Assembly (NCBI RefSeq): GCF_044324785.1
Contig: NZ_CP172127.1
Direction: 5' to 3' (one strand)
Origin: Escherichia coli
GTDB taxonomy: Bacteria > Pseudomonadota > Gammaproteobacteria > Enterobacterales > Enterobacteriaceae
Length of the DNA stretch: 64,000 nucleotides
Shown here in pieces: positions 10,587-47,152 of the stretch. The stretch's first letter is position 1; every line of letters starts with the position of its first letter. The notes under the pieces are model-generated. The model worked only from the letters and a program-made list of their open reading frames with translations. It was not told where the DNA came from and did no database searches. Made by a program: the position numbers and the translations under genes.

Positions 10587-10658
10587 TTTATTACCCCCTA
10601 CATTCGTGAATAACTGAAGCTAACTGCGAGCCTACGGGCTCGCAGTGAAAACTCTGGA

Positions 10659-41040: not shown

Positions 41041-41565
41041 ATGAAGTTATGGCCTGTGTTGACTGGCATTGCACTCTCTTTCACTCTTATAGCATGTAAG
41101 GCCCCGACACCACCTAAAGGTGTGCAGCCGATTACAAATTTTGACGCCAACCGCTACCTCGGAAAATGGTATGAAATAGCTCGCCTCGAGAACCGGTTCG
41201 AACGTGGTCTGGAACAGGTCAGCGCTACTTATGGAAAACGGAACGACGGAGGGATTCGTGTACTTAACCGTGGATACGATCCAACGAAAAATAAATGGAG
41301 CGAGAGCGAAGGTAAAGCATACTTTACTGGAGATACTAAAACTGCAGCGTTGAAGGTTTCGTTTTTTGGCCCCTTCTATGGTGGCTATAATGTAATCAAA
41401 CTGGATGATGAGTATAAGTATGCTCTTGTCAGTGGCCCGAACAGAGAATACCTATGGATTCTGGCAAGGACCCCAACTATTCCAGATAAAGTAAAAGCAG
41501 ACTATGTGCGAACCGCTCAAAAGTTGGGATTCAATGTCAATGAATTATTATGGGTTAAACAATAA
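41041..41565 (+). CDS. Outer-membrane lipocalin (Blc-like lipoprotein)
   Basis: 174-aa ORF with lipobox (LIAC) and lipocalin motifs (…NRYLGKWYEIARL…SFFGPFYGGYNVI…); paralog-level similarity to E. coli Blc. Confidence 0.8.
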   Translation: MKLWPVLTGIALSFTLIACKAPTPPKGVQPITNFDANRYLGKWYEIARLENRFERGLEQVSATYGKRNDGGIRVLNRGYDPTKNKWSESEGKAYFTGDTKTAALKVSFFGPFYGGYNVIKLDDEYKYALVSGPNREYLWILARTPTIPDKVKADYVRTAQKLGFNVNELLWVKQ

Positions 41566-42970: not shown

Positions 42971-43133
42971 GATTCCTCCTTGCTGCCAGTCGCAACCATT
43001 TTTTATCAACCAGGCTAGCGGTATATCCGAGCAGTGTTGGTATTTCGGATGGCTTCAGCTCAGGCTTACGCTTACGACGATTTGATACTCTGTAGATGTG
43101 TCCGTTCATGACACGAATAAGCGGTGTAGCCAT
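42963..43133 (-). CDS. ninE: NinE protein
   Basis: Manually translated 56-aa ORF ([56 protein letters not shown]); start overlaps ybcN stop (TAATG), stop overlaps ybcO start. Confidence 0.7.
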   Translation of the reverse strand: MATPLIRVMNGHIYRVSNRRKRKPELKPSEIPTLLGYTASLVDKKWLRLAARRNHG

Positions 43134-43588
43134 TACGCCTCCTGCTTGTCGCGGAGCAGCTGGAACTCGCAGCTCTGCGGAATAGTCAGGTGGCAGCCAA
43201 TATTCACCGCCCAGGCTTCAACCTTACACAGGAAGACATACATCTCTCCGGTATCAAGATCGGAGGTATGGCGTAACGACTGGATAGTGGTGATATCACC
43301 GGTTACGACATCAACCAGGTCTTTGGTTTCATAACCGAGATATGTGTGTTTGAGAGCATCTTTTACCCAAGCTGGAGTGGCGAACGTTTTACCCCTGCTG
43401 ATGAGGTATTCACTGATTTCGCTGTACCACATGTGGCTGAGTGCATTCTGGGAAAGACTGCGTTTCTCACGCCACGGTTTAAGCACCATGCGAAAGCATT
43501 TGCCCTCCTCCAGATAAGGCTGGATCTGCCGACCGATAGCGGTGAAGTTGCCGCGATGTAATTTGATGCCGTCTTGTGAGAGGTTCAC
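43133..43588 (-). CDS. ybcN: NinB/YbcN-family protein (recombination / DNA base-flipping)
   Basis: 151-aa ORF in the nin region upstream of ninE. Confidence 0.75.
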
Positions 43589-43802
43589 GCTTCACCTCCG
43601 CAGAGGTCAAACGCTAGATGCAAAGAATTGCAGGTGCATTTCTGCATCTGTGAAGGGAGAAGAGAGTTTGGATTGTATGTGCGCATAAACGTCCCCGTTT
43701 AGCGCAGAAGTCACCGGAGTTGTTCAGGCTCCGGTGACATAATTATGCCGTGTTGATTTCCCAAAATCAAAATCGATAGAATTGCTCCTTCTTAAAACAC
43801 TT

Positions 43803-44600
43803 TTACTCTCTGGAAGCTTTTCTTATCTCTCTTGGTGTTATATTAAAACGATTATGAAATCTTTCAGTAAAACGAGAAGGACACTTATAACCATTTTCTC
43901 TGGCAATCTCGCTTATAGGTTTTACCGTCGTTTGTATAGCAGACAACGCATTATTTAACCTCACATCGTCCAGTATACTTTGGAAACTTACCCCCTCGCT
44001 TGCTAGACGGCGATGTAATGTAGAAACAGAAATGTAGAGATATCGAGCAACCTTGTTTGCTGTCCATTTTGTGCCGGGTTCGGATAGCAGCAGGTTATAA
44101 CAACGACTTATCAATGATTGTTTACTATATGATAAAAGTAAATGATTAACATGATTCACTCCTAACGAAAGTAGAACGCCCATTGCTAAGTGCTCCTGAA
44201 TTTTAGTTGAGAAGCCTCGGGAAACAGATGTTTTTAGTTGCTCCCAACAATATATTAACTCAGGATTCTGAGGTAAAAAGAAACTTGTTTTGTTACGTAT
44301 TTGATCAGTTACCGTATAAAGTTTTTGGAAACTCTCAATTAAATCAATGGGTAAGTAAAGCATTTCTGCAAGATAAAGCCCTGCTTCAGGATAATTCTCA
44401 ATATAAAATTCATAACCACAAGGAAATAATATTATTTGATTATTATCAACAGTTAAAGTATGCGTCTCCCAATTGATAACTTTCTTTCCCTGACGGATAC
44501 GACACAAAGCTGGCATAAGAGGCTTAACCCTATGAATCTCATGATGTTTATGCATCCGTATTTCTTCGATCTTTAAGTTAGTCTTACCTCTTGCCAGCAT
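43803..44600 (-). CDS. ybcM: AraC-family transcriptional regulator YbcM
   Basis: 265-aa ORF with C-terminal AraC HTH; matches recalled DLP12 YbcM. Confidence 0.8.
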
Positions 44601-45625: not shown

Positions 45626-47152
45626 TTAGAAATAAATCTCACCATCAACCATATATTTGAGAGCACTTATCGCCTGCTGGGCGGATATTACTTTCATTAA
45701 AGGATAGTGTTTAAAAACAATGCCATTCATAAAATAGATATCACAGGTTTTATTATCCGTATTAATTATGATTTTTTCGAATGTTTTATAGGCAAGTGTA
45801 CGGCATAACTCTCGTCCATTTTTACTGGTTAAGTCAATAGCATAAAAATCACTGAATGAATTTACACCTTTACTCTTCAAAGTTTTCAATGATACCGAAG
45901 CCCTTCGTAATTCCTTATCTAATAGTCTTATTTTCTCTGCTATAGCGGTAACTTCAGGCGCGACAGACAATGCAACGATTAAATTATTAATTTTCATCTG
46001 AAGCTCAATAATTTTTAACTCTAAAGTTTCATTAGCATCTTTCTTGTTTTCAACTGGTTGAATTTTGCTACAATTAAAAAGCAATTCATTAATGATATTA
46101 TAATCAACCAAATCTCTTTTTATTGATGGCCTGTCACATCGATGTAATCTTCTCATCGGACAAACATAATAGCCATGCAAACTTCCAGATACCGCATGAA
46201 CAATCATGGTATTACCACAAGCCTCACACTTCATAACTGTTCGAAGTAGATTTATTAGCATAGGATTCTTGCTACTATTGCTAATACCAAAAGGTGCCAA
46301 CCGAATTTCCTGTACAGCGTAAAACAAATCATCTGATATGACTCTGGGATAATAGCCAGCGATTTCACTTATCCCTTTCCCTCTTGCACGATATGAAGGT
46401 ACGCATATACCTATCAGAGCTTTATTCGCTAATAATTTTTCAATTACAGAAGGTCCCCATGCACTTTCTTTTCCTGAGAAATTCTTTACAGCATGATCAT
46501 TTAAATACTTGGCTATTGCATTCAATGAGCGCCTTTCCATCCTGAGTTTAAAAATTAGCTCAATAGTTTTCACCCTGTCGGGGTCTGGAACAAAAGCCGT
46601 TCTTTTGTCATCTAAGGAGAGCCATCTCGGACAAGACGCCGTCATAATCGTACCTGATTCCAGTGCATCCTGCCGTTTTTTCTTCCATGATAATTTAACC
46701 CGACTTGACTTTATCTCGCTTTCTTCATTTGCCCTTTGTGCTATAAGTATGGCTTTTATTAATGAATATGGCTCATTCAAAGAGTCAATATTATAGACTG
46801 TATTGTCGCAAAGAGTTATAACATCAATACCGTGATTCAAAATCAATTTCAGACGTTCAATCGCTTCACCGACTTTTTCTCTTGAAAGTCTGTCCAGACT
46901 TTCAACTAACAATGTAGTTCCTGGCAATATATAACCATGCTCTATAGCATCTAAAAATTCCGAAAAAGCTCCTGATTGTGCATGCTTTCCTTTGAATGCA
47001 CTTAATCCTAAATCTTCATATGTTATGGTATCAAGATAATAATCACTATTTACCTTTAACCATTCAGCAATAAGTCTTCTCTGTCGGTTTAATGAGTCAC
47101 CAGACATCTGACCTGGTGATGAAAATCGCATATATGCTATGGCTTTTTTCAT
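45626..47152 (-). CDS. ybcK: Large serine recombinase (YbcK-like)
   Basis: 508-aa ORF; N-terminal resolvase domain with catalytic Ser context (AIAYMRFSSPGQ), C-terminal Cys-rich zinc ribbon (CEACGN…CPMRRLHRCD). Confidence 0.8.
   Translation of the reverse strand: MKKAIAYMRFSSPGQMSGDSLNRQRRLIAEWLKVNSDYYLDTITYEDLGLSAFKGKHAQSGAFSEFLDAIEHGYILPGTTLLVESLDRLSREKVGEAIERLKLILNHGIDVITLCDNTVYNIDSLNEPYSLIKAILIAQRANEESEIKSSRVKLSWKKKRQDALESGTIMTASCPRWLSLDDKRTAFVPDPDRVKTIELIFKLRMERRSLNAIAKYLNDHAVKNFSGKESAWGPSVIEKLLANKALIGICVPSYRARGKGISEIAGYYPRVISDDLFYAVQEIRLAPFGISNSSKNPMLINLLRTVMKCEACGNTMIVHAVSGSLHGYYVCPMRRLHRCDRPSIKRDLVDYNIINELLFNCSKIQPVENKKDANETLELKIIELQMKINNLIVALSVAPEVTAIAEKIRLLDKELRRASVSLKTLKSKGVNSFSDFYAIDLTSKNGRELCRTLAYKTFEKIIINTDNKTCDIYFMNGIVFKHYPLMKVISAQQAISALKYMVDGEIYF

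What the first reader, a model, noticed from the sequence alone, without database searches (positions are those of the whole stretch)
43711..43737. Perfect 9-bp stem-loop between ybcM and ybcN without a T-tract
tcaccggag-(9 nt)-ctccggtga lies in the intergenic region between cargo gene ybcM and the nin genes. It is not followed by a U-run on either strand, so it is more likely a protein-binding site or RNA stability element than an intrinsic terminator.
Basis: seen in the sequence. Interest (0 to 1): 0.2.

Follow-up and report, generated by a model that had tools for sequence, protein, structure and literature searches.

The report
Conserved leader RNA hairpin before nin genes
The stem-loop is real and is a strongly conserved RNA hairpin sitting right after a conserved promoter at the head of the prophage's nin-Q operon, where short RNAs are known to end in E. 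coli K-12, so it most likely gates how much transcription enters the genes that lead to phage late-gene activation.

Summary
The palindrome exists; it is a perfect 10-bp stem (43738-43729 / 43719-43710, minus strand) with a 9-nt loop and no U-run on either strand. It is not a stray intergenic palindrome. Homology to other prophages and phages (HK639, phi80, Enterobacter and Klebsiella phages) starts at a sigma-70-type promoter (TTGATT-17-CATAAT) and runs through the hairpin, while the upstream cargo differs. About half of complete E. coli genomes carry the block. Across 61 hairpin variants the stem covaries (9 of 10 pairs). G.U pairs outnumber A.C mismatches 95 to 9 on the nin-sense strand. 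The loop core UGARC never changes. This indicates an RNA element, not a DNA operator. Published Term-seq data for MG1655 place RNA 3' ends 5-6 nt after the stem. Best reading: a U-tract-less, promoter-proximal attenuator or 3'-end-defining hairpin, at the position where lambda has tR2. The conserved loop is unexplained. No Rfam family matches.

The parts
43710..43738 (-). Hairpin b (the finding): 5' arm GUCACCGGAG (43738-43729), 9-nt loop CCUGAACAA (43728-43720), 3' arm CUCCGGUGAC (43719-43710).
   Evidence: Covariation: 8-9 of 10 pairs have changes on both sides, and 90% of cells are paired against 18-42% when the partner is slid. 61 distinct variants.
43765..43770 (-). -35-like hexamer TTGATT. 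It is also the left edge of the block shared with other phages; upstream sequence is unrelated between loci.
   Evidence: promoter scan. TTGATT in 83 of 98 unique sequences, 17-bp spacer in 94 of 98. Searches show where homology starts.
43742..43747 (-). -10-like hexamer CATAAT, always 3-4 nt before the first stem base.
   Evidence: CATAAT 76, CATACT 9, TATAAT 7, AATAAT 5 of 98. Every variant with a poor -35 has a perfect extended -10 (TGnTATAAT), which is a compensatory pattern.
43735..43735 (-). Predicted transcription start: the 7th nt after the -10 and the 4th nt of the 5' arm. This is inferred, not mapped.
   Evidence: this position is a purine in 98 of 98 sequences, and the preceding base is a pyrimidine in 93 of 98. 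Indirect support: the Adams et al. filter requires a mapped TSS more than 20 and at most 200 nt upstream of the 3' end.
43753..43770 (-). Inverted repeat a: TTGATTT-TGGG-AAATCAA, overlapping the -35 and the spacer. phi80 has the compensated form TTGATA..TATCAA. Its role is unknown.
43704..43705 (-). Positions equivalent to the RNA 3' ends mapped in E. coli K-12 MG1655 at 572349 and 572350 (...GGUGACUUCUG / C).
   Evidence: Adams et al. 2021, PMC7815308, supplementary files 1 and 3. Coordinates transferred through; the K-12 sequence is identical over this stretch.
43681..43705 (-). Hairpin c: GCGCUAAACG-GGGA-CGUUUAUGCGC. The Shine-Dalgarno-like GGGGA sits in the loop and the ylcH AUG in the 3' arm. 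It is homologous to the repeat annotated 'IR4' in phage phi80.
   Evidence: phi80 annotation; the helix is 95-99% paired, with AU/UA/CG/GC swaps at 3-5 pairs.
43585..43686 (-). ylcH, a 33-codon upstream ORF. Its stop overlaps the ybcN start (GTGA). The ORF is kept in four sequence classes with different N-terminal halves and a conserved C-terminal LHxAFxLxGGEA.
   Evidence: (annotated b4588 in MG1655).
43618..43647 (-). Inverted repeat d inside ylcH: AUGCAGAAA-N12-13-UUUCUGCAU. An alternative is a 5-bp hairpin UGCAG/CUGCA followed by a U-rich tail.
   Evidence: terminator-like hit at 43646..43629; conserved pairs. Covariation is weak here because this stretch was used as the search anchor.
43650..43682 (-). 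G-free, C-rich stretch of about 33 nt at the start of ylcH; a possible Rho loading site.
   Evidence: C:G of 14:3 in 40-nt windows.
43133..43588 (-). ybcN (NinB/Orf family), the first long gene of the operon that the leader heads.

Best explanation
The palindrome is the first stem-loop of a conserved, structured leader RNA on the minus (nin-sense) strand, and it works as RNA. The leader begins at a conserved sigma-70-type promoter whose predicted start lies inside the 5' arm. It continues through a second hairpin that holds the ribosome-binding site and AUG of the small ORF ylcH, which is translationally coupled to ybcN/ninB. In E. coli K-12, stable RNA 3' ends lie 5-6 nt after the hairpin. 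I therefore read it as a promoter-proximal, U-tract-less attenuator or 3'-end-defining hairpin. Transcripts entering the nin-Q operon, whether from this promoter or from upstream, mostly stop at it or are trimmed back to it. It thus limits expression of the nin genes and of the late-gene activator Q unless the block is overcome. It sits where lambda has terminator tR2. Shown: the hairpin, its conservation, RNA-level selection on the sense strand, its fixed spacing to promoter-like elements, and the 3' ends in K-12. Inferred: that the promoter fires at 43735, that the 3' ends reflect attenuation, and how they form. My preferred route is Rho-dependent termination on the untranslated, G-free start of ylcH followed by exonuclease trimming back to this hairpin, rather than true intrinsic termination. 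The invariant loop (CCUGAACA, core UGARC) implies an additional sequence-specific partner that I could not identify.
For: Module membership: homology with prophages that lack ybcM runs through the hairpin and stops at the -35. Upstream cargo varies: SIR2, HEPN, theta, P22AR-C and others. RNA-level selection: in 70-72 distinct sequences, 90% of cells are paired against 18-42% in slid controls, 8-9 of 10 pairs change on both sides, and 0 of 500 shuffles reach the observed score. G.U outnumbers A.C 96 to 20, or 95 to 9 without two alignment-ambiguous pairs. The loop is conserved even in Klebsiella phages whose stem is only 5 bp. Promoter: both hexamers, the 17-bp spacer, the compensatory extended -10 and an R at the predicted +1 in 98 of 98 sequences. 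RNA ends: MG1655 Term-seq 3' ends at 572349 and 572350, seen in two of three conditions, are the only curated ends in 572100-572699. They are retained in the paper's 5'-UTR table, which requires a TSS 21-200 nt upstream. The operon is poorly expressed in K-12 unless an insertion supplies a promoter (Curtis et al. 2014, PMC4118853). Lambda tR2 occupies the same slot directly before ninB. A G-free C-rich stretch follows the ylcH start.
Against: None of the roughly 100 variants has a U-tract, so classical intrinsic termination is unlikely. Adams et al. list no Rho-termination region here, although expression is low. The Term-seq read counts are near the low end of that table. I could not see the TSS directly because the Thomason 2015 table is not held. 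An exonuclease-stop or terminator role does not explain why the loop sequence is invariant. The three outer stem pairs lie upstream of the predicted start yet still covary, so the full hairpin can only form in RNA arriving from upstream. This means the promoter-derived and read-through RNAs see different hairpins. The sequences were retrieved with an exact 21-mer anchor in ylcH and are related to one another, so cell counts overstate the number of independent events.
Confidence: 0.5

Rival explanations
1. 5'-terminal stabilising or translation-tuning hairpin. The promoter starts transcription at the 4th stem base, so nin mRNA begins with a flush 7-8-bp stem-loop. This protects it from 5'-end-dependent decay (as with the ompA 5' hairpin) or tunes ylcH translation. 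The mapped 3' ends would be decay intermediates.
For: The spacing between the -10 and the stem is fixed at 3-4 nt, with no indels in 98 sequences. The predicted +1 is always a purine, and its base pair (columns 16-42) is intact in 70 of 70 sequences.
Against: The three pairs upstream of the predicted start also covary, which a 5'-end cap would not need. Loop invariance is not required for end protection. K-12 shows a discrete 3' end right after the hairpin and poor operon expression.
Confidence: 0.2
2. Recognition hairpin for a sequence-specific factor, a protein or RNA encoded by the phage or the host, that switches RNA polymerase or the ribosome. This would be an antitermination-type or translational operator site analogous in logic to nut/boxB, put, or the PR'-qut switch.
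For: A variable stem with an invariant 9-nt loop (core UGARC) across E. coli, Enterobacter and Klebsiella phages is the usual signature of a loop-recognised hairpin. A covarying inverted repeat also lies between the -35 and -10.
Against: No candidate factor was found. There is only one copy per phage early region. There is no boxA, and the loop differs from the annotated phi80 nutL core CACGUAAACGUG. The model does not match the HK639 putL-like RNA. No Rfam family matches.
Confidence: 0.2
3. DNA-level site: an operator for a dimeric repressor centred about +13 of the promoter, or a conserved linker kept only because it serves as a homologous-recombination junction for swapping cargo modules.
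For: A perfect palindrome overlaps the start region of a promoter. The whole promoter-leader-ylcH segment is duplicated on both sides of cargo genes in three loci. The block edge coincides with a mosaic boundary.
Against: The arms diverge to unrelated sequences while pairing is kept. The mismatch spectrum is strongly strand-asymmetric, G.U 95 against A.C 9. The centre (loop) is the conserved part, the opposite of a typical operator. A recombination linker would not select for compensatory changes.
Confidence: 0.07
4. Weak, non-canonical intrinsic terminator: the functional tR2 of this phage group. Termination would occur at CUUCUG/C, 8-9 nt after the conserved core of the stem.
For: A strong GC-rich stem of -18 kcal/mol. 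The 3' ends lie 5-6 nt after the full stem, which is 8-9 nt after the part of the stem present in promoter-derived RNA. Same position as lambda tR2.
Against: The tail has only 3 U in 8 nt, and no variant has a U-run. By established knowledge of E. coli RNA polymerase, such hairpins terminate poorly in vitro.
Confidence: 0.1

Closest known systems
Phage lambda terminator tR2 (between ren and ninB)
   Same: Same slot in the genome map: directly upstream of the NinB/Orf gene at the entry to the nin region. An RNA hairpin on the rightward early transcript. RNA ends form just downstream.
   Different: tR2 is a canonical intrinsic terminator (GGCCUGC...GCAGGCC followed by UUUUUAUUU). This hairpin has no U-tract, no sequence similarity to tR2, a conserved 9-nt loop, and a promoter abutting it.
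Stem-loops that mark trimmed 3' ends of Rho-dependent transcripts in E. coli (Dar and Sorek 2018, PMC6061677)
   Same: A stable hairpin without a U-tract, with the RNA 3' end a few nt after the stem. A C-rich, G-poor stretch lies downstream.
   Different: Rho dependence is not shown here, and no Rho region is listed. The hairpin belongs to the downstream module and has an invariant loop, which a simple exonuclease block does not need.
Lambdoid late promoter PR' with its short terminated transcript (6S RNA/tR') and the Q-binding element between -35 and -10
   Same: A constitutive-looking sigma-70 promoter followed by early RNA 3'-end formation. A covarying inverted repeat lies between the -35 and -10.
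   Different: It sits upstream of Q, not downstream. I could find no sigma-dependent pause element. The short RNA would be about 31 nt. No antiterminator is known to act here.
HK022/HK639 put antiterminator RNAs and lambda nut (boxA/boxB)
   Same: Cis-acting stem-loops in early phage transcripts. The two adjacent hairpins here (b and c) span about 60 nt.
   Different: The model does not match the HK639 putL-like element. There is no boxA. The loop is 9 nt, not a GNRA-like pentaloop. The phi80 nutL core is a different hairpin. The second hairpin carries an SD and AUG.
phi80 'IR4' repeat annotation (JX871397)
   Same: IR4 is the homologue of hairpin c, 5 nt downstream of the finding.
   Different: The finding itself (hairpin b) is not annotated in phi80, and no function is given for IR4.
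ompA-type 5'-terminal stabiliser hairpin
   Same: The predicted transcript would start flush with a stable stem.
   Different: The stem extends 3 bp upstream of the predicted start. No stability data exist.

Membership tests
Intrinsic (Rho-independent) terminator | GC-rich stem-loop | tested here: met
   10-bp stem with 7 G-C pairs, -18.3 kcal/mol.
Intrinsic (Rho-independent) terminator | Run of U (at least 4-5 in 8 nt) immediately 3' of the stem | tested here: not met
   The tail is CUUCUGCG. The scan does not call it. No U-run appears in any of 61 variants.
Intrinsic (Rho-independent) terminator | RNA 3' end 7-9 nt after the stem, formed by polymerase release | tested here: inconclusive
   The 3' ends lie 5-6 nt after the full stem, which is 8-9 nt after the part downstream of the predicted TSS. 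Release versus trimming cannot be told apart from these data.
Exonuclease-protective hairpin at a Rho-dependent 3' end | Stable hairpin lacking a U-tract, with the 3' end just downstream | tested here: met
Exonuclease-protective hairpin at a Rho-dependent 3' end | Read-through when Rho is inhibited | tested here: inconclusive
   No ybcM-rusA region appears in the Adams et al. Rho table. Expression is low, and the Rho score was computed only for LB OD 0.4, where no 3' end was called.
Sigma-70 promoter | -35 and -10 hexamers with 16-18 bp spacing, conserved as such | tested here: met
   TTGATT-17-CATAAT. Conserved in 98 unique sequences, with a compensatory TGnTATAAT wherever the -35 is poor.
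Sigma-70 promoter | Mapped transcription start | tested here: inconclusive
   Evidence is indirect only, from the TSS-dependent filter of Adams et al.. Nothing was found in the held Cappable-seq supplements. The Thomason 2015 paper is not held.
Lambda-type nut site (boxA + boxB) | boxA consensus (YGCUCUUUA) upstream of a short hairpin with a GNRA-like pentaloop | tested here: not met
   There is no boxA in the conserved flanks, and the loop is 9 nt. The annotated phi80 nutL is a different hairpin.
put antiterminator RNA (HK022/HK639) | Sequence and structure similarity to put | tested here: not met
   Model R1 finds only the nin leader in HK639, not the annotated putL-like RNA.
Any Rfam 15 family | Covariance-model match at or near the gathering score | tested here: not met
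   The best hits are noise: 24 bits against a gathering score of 291, and 16 against 51. A whole-window gathering scan gives only IS009 and a tRNA.
DNA operator for a dimeric protein | Sequence-conserved, symmetric half-sites with a tolerant centre | tested here: not met
   The half-sites vary and covary, the centre is invariant, and the mismatch spectrum is strand-asymmetric.
Structured RNA element under selection (generic) | Compensatory base changes exceeding controls | tested here: met
   0 of 500 shuffles reach the observed covariation, and slid controls reach 18-42% paired against 90-95%.

The most novel reading that the evidence does not exclude
The conserved promoter, the hairpin with its invariant CCUGARCA loop, and the uORF together form a self-contained switch at the head of the nin-Q operon. 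In this reading, RNA polymerase starting there (or arriving from pR) is stopped about 31 nt in unless an unidentified factor recognises the loop, or the repeat inside the promoter. That would give this large group of lambdoid phages an extra checkpoint on Q expression, independent of N and Q, and therefore on lysis timing and prophage induction.
Probability: 0.15. Interest if true: 0.7.

Novelty: new member of a known kind. Interest (0 to 1): 0.45.

Why it matters
The nin-Q segment decides when a lambdoid phage turns on its late genes, which in Shiga-toxin phages include the toxin. In lambda this entry point is guarded by terminator tR2 and depends on N. This work shows that a different, widespread phage group carries a distinct device at the same point: a conserved promoter followed at once by a covarying RNA hairpin with an invariant loop, then a structured ribosome-binding site and a coupled upstream ORF. 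The group is present in about half of complete E. coli genomes and also in Klebsiella and Enterobacter phages. The element is absent from Rfam and unannotated, yet it coincides with the only curated RNA 3' end in that part of the DLP12 prophage. It is a compact, testable candidate for a new leader or attenuator RNA family. It is also a fixed landmark beside a hotspot where accessory and defence genes are inserted.

Tried and rejected
- **Rfam:** an E-value scan of the region and a gathering scan of the whole window gave only noise.
- **Literature search for the sequence:** no paper prints it. Searches for ylcH/ybcN found nothing useful. The phi80 genome paper is not held.
- **Direct TSS evidence:**
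  - The Cappable-seq and SMRT-Cappable-seq supplements held as text have no entry near the site; the held text is short, so I cannot tell whether the full tables are there.
  - Thomason 2015 is not held.
  - Dar and Sorek 2018 has no held supplements.
  - The TERMITe tables hold nothing relevant.
- **Known prophage anti-sRNAs (AgvB/AsxR):** these lie 3' of PR', not here.
- **put-like RNA:** HK639 putL is unrelated.
- **N-utilisation site:** the phi80 nutL boxA and core differ, and no second copy of the loop motif exists in the early regions of phi80, HK639 or this prophage.
- **FNR box:** TTGAT-N4-ATCAA is the consensus from memory; the spacing here is N8, so I rejected it.
- **boxB-like pentaloop (U-A closing pair with GAACA):** not consistent between the A-ending and C-ending loop classes, so I rejected it.
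- **Long-range pairing from RNAalifold:** it paired the 5' arm with the ninB Shine-Dalgarno. This pairing shows only one-sided changes and is lost in stem classes with other sequences. I treat it as an artefact of MAFFT misaligning the 10-bp and 11-bp stem classes.
- **Plus-strand RNA:** it folds slightly better, but the wobble asymmetry argues against the plus strand.

Full report
**Observation.** The window reads gtcaccggag-ttgttcagg-ctccggtgac at 43710-43738. Neither strand has a T-run after it, and the terminator scan does not call it. It folds at -18.3 kcal/mol on the minus strand (z -6.2) and -22.1 on the plus strand (z -7.4). Perfect hairpins of this size occur 3 times in the window against 0.55 expected from shuffles, so the palindrome alone is only mildly unusual.

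**Context.** All genes here are on the minus strand: ybcK, ybcL, ybcM (43803-44600), then the hairpin, then a 33-codon ORF (43686-43585). This ORF is annotated ylcH (b4588) in MG1655 and its stop overlaps the GTG start of ybcN/ninB. After it come ninE, ybcO, rusA, ylcG and a Q antiterminator. The prophage sits at tRNA-Arg(tct). Unlike K-12 DLP12, it still has cI, cro, O, P and ren upstream, and its late genes are missing.

**Which module owns the hairpin.**
- A 271-nt query hits 2,827 of 5,426 complete E. coli genomes. Only 675 of these also match the ybcM side; the others stop matching about 35 nt beyond the hairpin.
- In those genomes the gene upstream is something else: hypothetical proteins, SIR2, HEPN, P22AR-C. 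In phages it is the theta subunit or an N15 gp45-like gene.
- Alignments show identity starting at TTGAT (43770) and running through the hairpin into ylcH.
- A 92-nt query covering only the promoter-like element and hairpins b and c is found in 2,781 genomes, and at 80% coverage or more in 2,550.
- The hairpin therefore belongs to the nin module, and its left edge is a cargo-insertion boundary.
- In three loci the whole promoter-leader-ylcH segment occurs twice, flanking cargo.

**RNA or DNA.** I retrieved more than 120 viral contigs with an invariant 21-mer from ylcH. They contain 61 distinct versions of the hairpin.
- On a plain MAFFT alignment of 72 distinct leader sequences, the hairpin helix is 89.7% paired, against 25-41% for the whole two-helix structure when partners are slid. 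Eight of its 10 pairs change on both sides, and no shuffle of 500 reaches the observed covariation.
- After realignment to a covariance model, 9 of 10 pairs show double changes. That alignment leans towards the structure.
- Stems as different as GUCACCGGAG, GUCGCAGUCGG, CCAUCGUCGG, GGUGUUGUCGG and UCUGCCAG (phi80) all pair.
- Non-Watson-Crick cells are overwhelmingly G.U on the gene-sense strand: 96 against 20 A.C or C.A, or 95 against 9 when two alignment-ambiguous columns are dropped. A DNA palindrome bound by a dimer would show no such bias, and the plus-strand RNA would carry those as A.C mismatches.
- The 9-nt loop is CCUGAACA(A/C) with an invariant UGARC core. It survives in Klebsiella phages whose stem is only 5 bp.
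- Caveat: the sequences are related and were collected with an exact anchor, so counts of cells are not counts of events.

**The neighbours of the hairpin.**
- Promoter. Immediately upstream is TTGATT-17 bp-CATAAT. Among 98 unique sequences the -35 is TTGATT in 83, the spacer is 17 bp in 94, and the -10 is CATAAT, CATACT, TATAAT or AATAAT in 97. Every sequence with a poor -35 has a perfect extended -10, TGnTATAAT. That compensatory pattern is what a real sigma-70 promoter would show.
- Predicted start. The -10 is always 3-4 nt from the stem. The seventh base after it, the usual start position, is a purine in 98 of 98 and is the fourth base of the 5' arm (window 43735). The three outer pairs of the stem lie upstream of that position yet still covary. 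The complete hairpin can therefore form only in RNA arriving from upstream (pR or cargo read-through), while promoter-derived RNA would begin flush with a 7-8-bp version.
- Hairpin c. Five nt downstream lies a second covarying hairpin (43705-43681). Its loop is GGGA/GGGGA, the Shine-Dalgarno sequence, and its 3' arm contains the ylcH AUG. phi80 annotates this one as IR4.
- ylcH. The ORF is maintained in four divergent classes, and its stop always overlaps the ninB start as GTGA or ATGA. Its first 33 nt are G-free and C-rich. A further conserved inverted repeat lies inside it.

**Transcript evidence.**
- Adams et al. 2021 (PMC7815308) list curated Term-seq 3' ends in MG1655 at 572349(+) and 572350(+), in two of the three growth conditions. 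From their position in the file, these are probably LB OD 2.0 and M63. The flanking sequence they print is this hairpin.
- The ends fall at ...GGUGACUUCUG and ...UUCUGC, 5 and 6 nt after the stem.
- They are the only curated ends between 572100 and 572699.
- The first is kept in the paper's table of 5'-UTR ends ('-19 ylcH, -117 ybcN'). By their Methods, that table requires a mapped TSS within 200 nt and more than 20 nt upstream. This is consistent with, but does not prove, a start near 572319.
- No Rho-termination region is listed for these genes.
- Independently, Curtis et al. 2014 (PMC4118853) note that rusA experiments suggest insertions supplying an active promoter upstream are needed for adequate expression at this locus.

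**Interpretation.**
- The element is a cis-acting RNA hairpin at the very start of the nin-Q leader.
- Its position matches lambda tR2, which sits directly before ninB, but it is not a canonical terminator.
- The simplest reading that covers the promoter, the 3' ends and the silence of the operon is a promoter-proximal attenuator: most RNA ends at, or is trimmed back to, this hairpin.
- I favour Rho termination on the untranslated, G-free start of ylcH, whose ribosome-binding site is locked in hairpin c, followed by exonuclease trimming. This class of U-less hairpin 3' ends is described by Dar and Sorek 2018. I favour it over true intrinsic termination, but the data do not separate the two.
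- A pure 5'-end-stabiliser role is possible. It does not explain the outer pairs or the 3' ends.
- None of these readings explains the invariant loop, which points to a sequence-specific partner. I found none:
  - The motif occurs once per early region.
  - It is unlike the HK639 putL-like RNA.
  - It is unlike the phi80 nutL.
  - It is not one of the known prophage anti-sRNAs.
  - It has no Rfam match.
  - It is not printed in any held paper.

**Verdict.** The thing is a member of a previously undescribed but conventional kind: a conserved phage leader RNA hairpin with an attenuator-like signature. Its exact mechanism and loop partner remain open.

Noticed in passing
It is kept as an ORF in four divergent sequence classes with a conserved C-terminal LHxAFxLxGGEA. 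Its stop always overlaps the ninB start (GTGA or ATGA), which suggests translational coupling.
   Followed up: partly
window 43681-43705 (-): A second covarying hairpin has the Shine-Dalgarno sequence (GGGGA) in its loop and the ylcH AUG in its 3' arm. It is homologous to the unexplained 'IR4' repeat annotated in phage phi80.
   Followed up: partly
window 43618-43647 (-): A conserved inverted repeat lies inside ylcH (AUGCAGAAA...UUUCUGCAU). It can alternatively form a 5-bp hairpin followed by a U-rich tail, which looks like an antiterminator/terminator pair. No Term-seq 3' end is listed there.
   Followed up: partly
window 43753-43770 (-): The inverted repeat TTGATTT-N4-AAATCAA overlaps the -35 and spacer of the conserved promoter. 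phi80 has the compensated form TTGATA..TATCAA. It may be a regulator site or an RNA hairpin in read-through transcripts.
   Followed up: no
L003:5443-5511, L016:6838-6907, L069:4584-4653: In three prophages or phage contigs the whole promoter-leader-ylcH segment is present twice, bracketing inserted cargo genes (for example P22AR-C, HEPN and a hypothetical gene in L003). Cargo seems to be swapped by recombination within this leader.
   Followed up: partly
L001-L004, L006-L008 (upstream of the leader): The slot between the replication genes or ren and the leader holds very different accessory genes in different strains: ybcKLM plus emrE here, and SIR2, HEPN, DNA pol III theta, P22AR-C and hypotheticals elsewhere. 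It looks like a cargo and defence hotspot with a fixed right border at the -35.
   Followed up: partly
L134:1730-1790 (-) (Klebsiella phage vB_Kpn_Chronis): A textbook intrinsic terminator (AAACCCGCC...GGCGGGTTTTTGC) sits about 75-80 nt upstream of the leader's promoter-like -35. In that phage the nin leader therefore lies behind a strong terminator and would need its own promoter or antitermination.
   Followed up: no
window 43602 against MG1655 572452: The only difference from K-12 in the 271-nt region is GGAGGTG (window) against GGAGGGG (K-12). It lies in the Shine-Dalgarno sequence of ybcN and is synonymous in ylcH, so K-12 has the weaker ninB ribosome-binding site.
   Followed up: no
window 41041-41565 (+) and below: Directly after the Q gene, the prophage late region is replaced by a lipocalin-family gene and a YbgA-family gene. 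This prophage is therefore truncated on the late side but keeps cI, cro, O, P and ren, unlike K-12 DLP12.
   Followed up: partly
window 10623-10646 and 46882-46905: These are the two other perfect 10-bp hairpins in the window: ACTGCGAGCC-TACG-GGCTCGCAGT, and TTGAAAGTCT-GTCC-AGACTTTCAA, the latter inside ybcK.
   Followed up: no
window 12777-12975 (-): Rfam IS009 RNA match at 228 bits.
   Followed up: no
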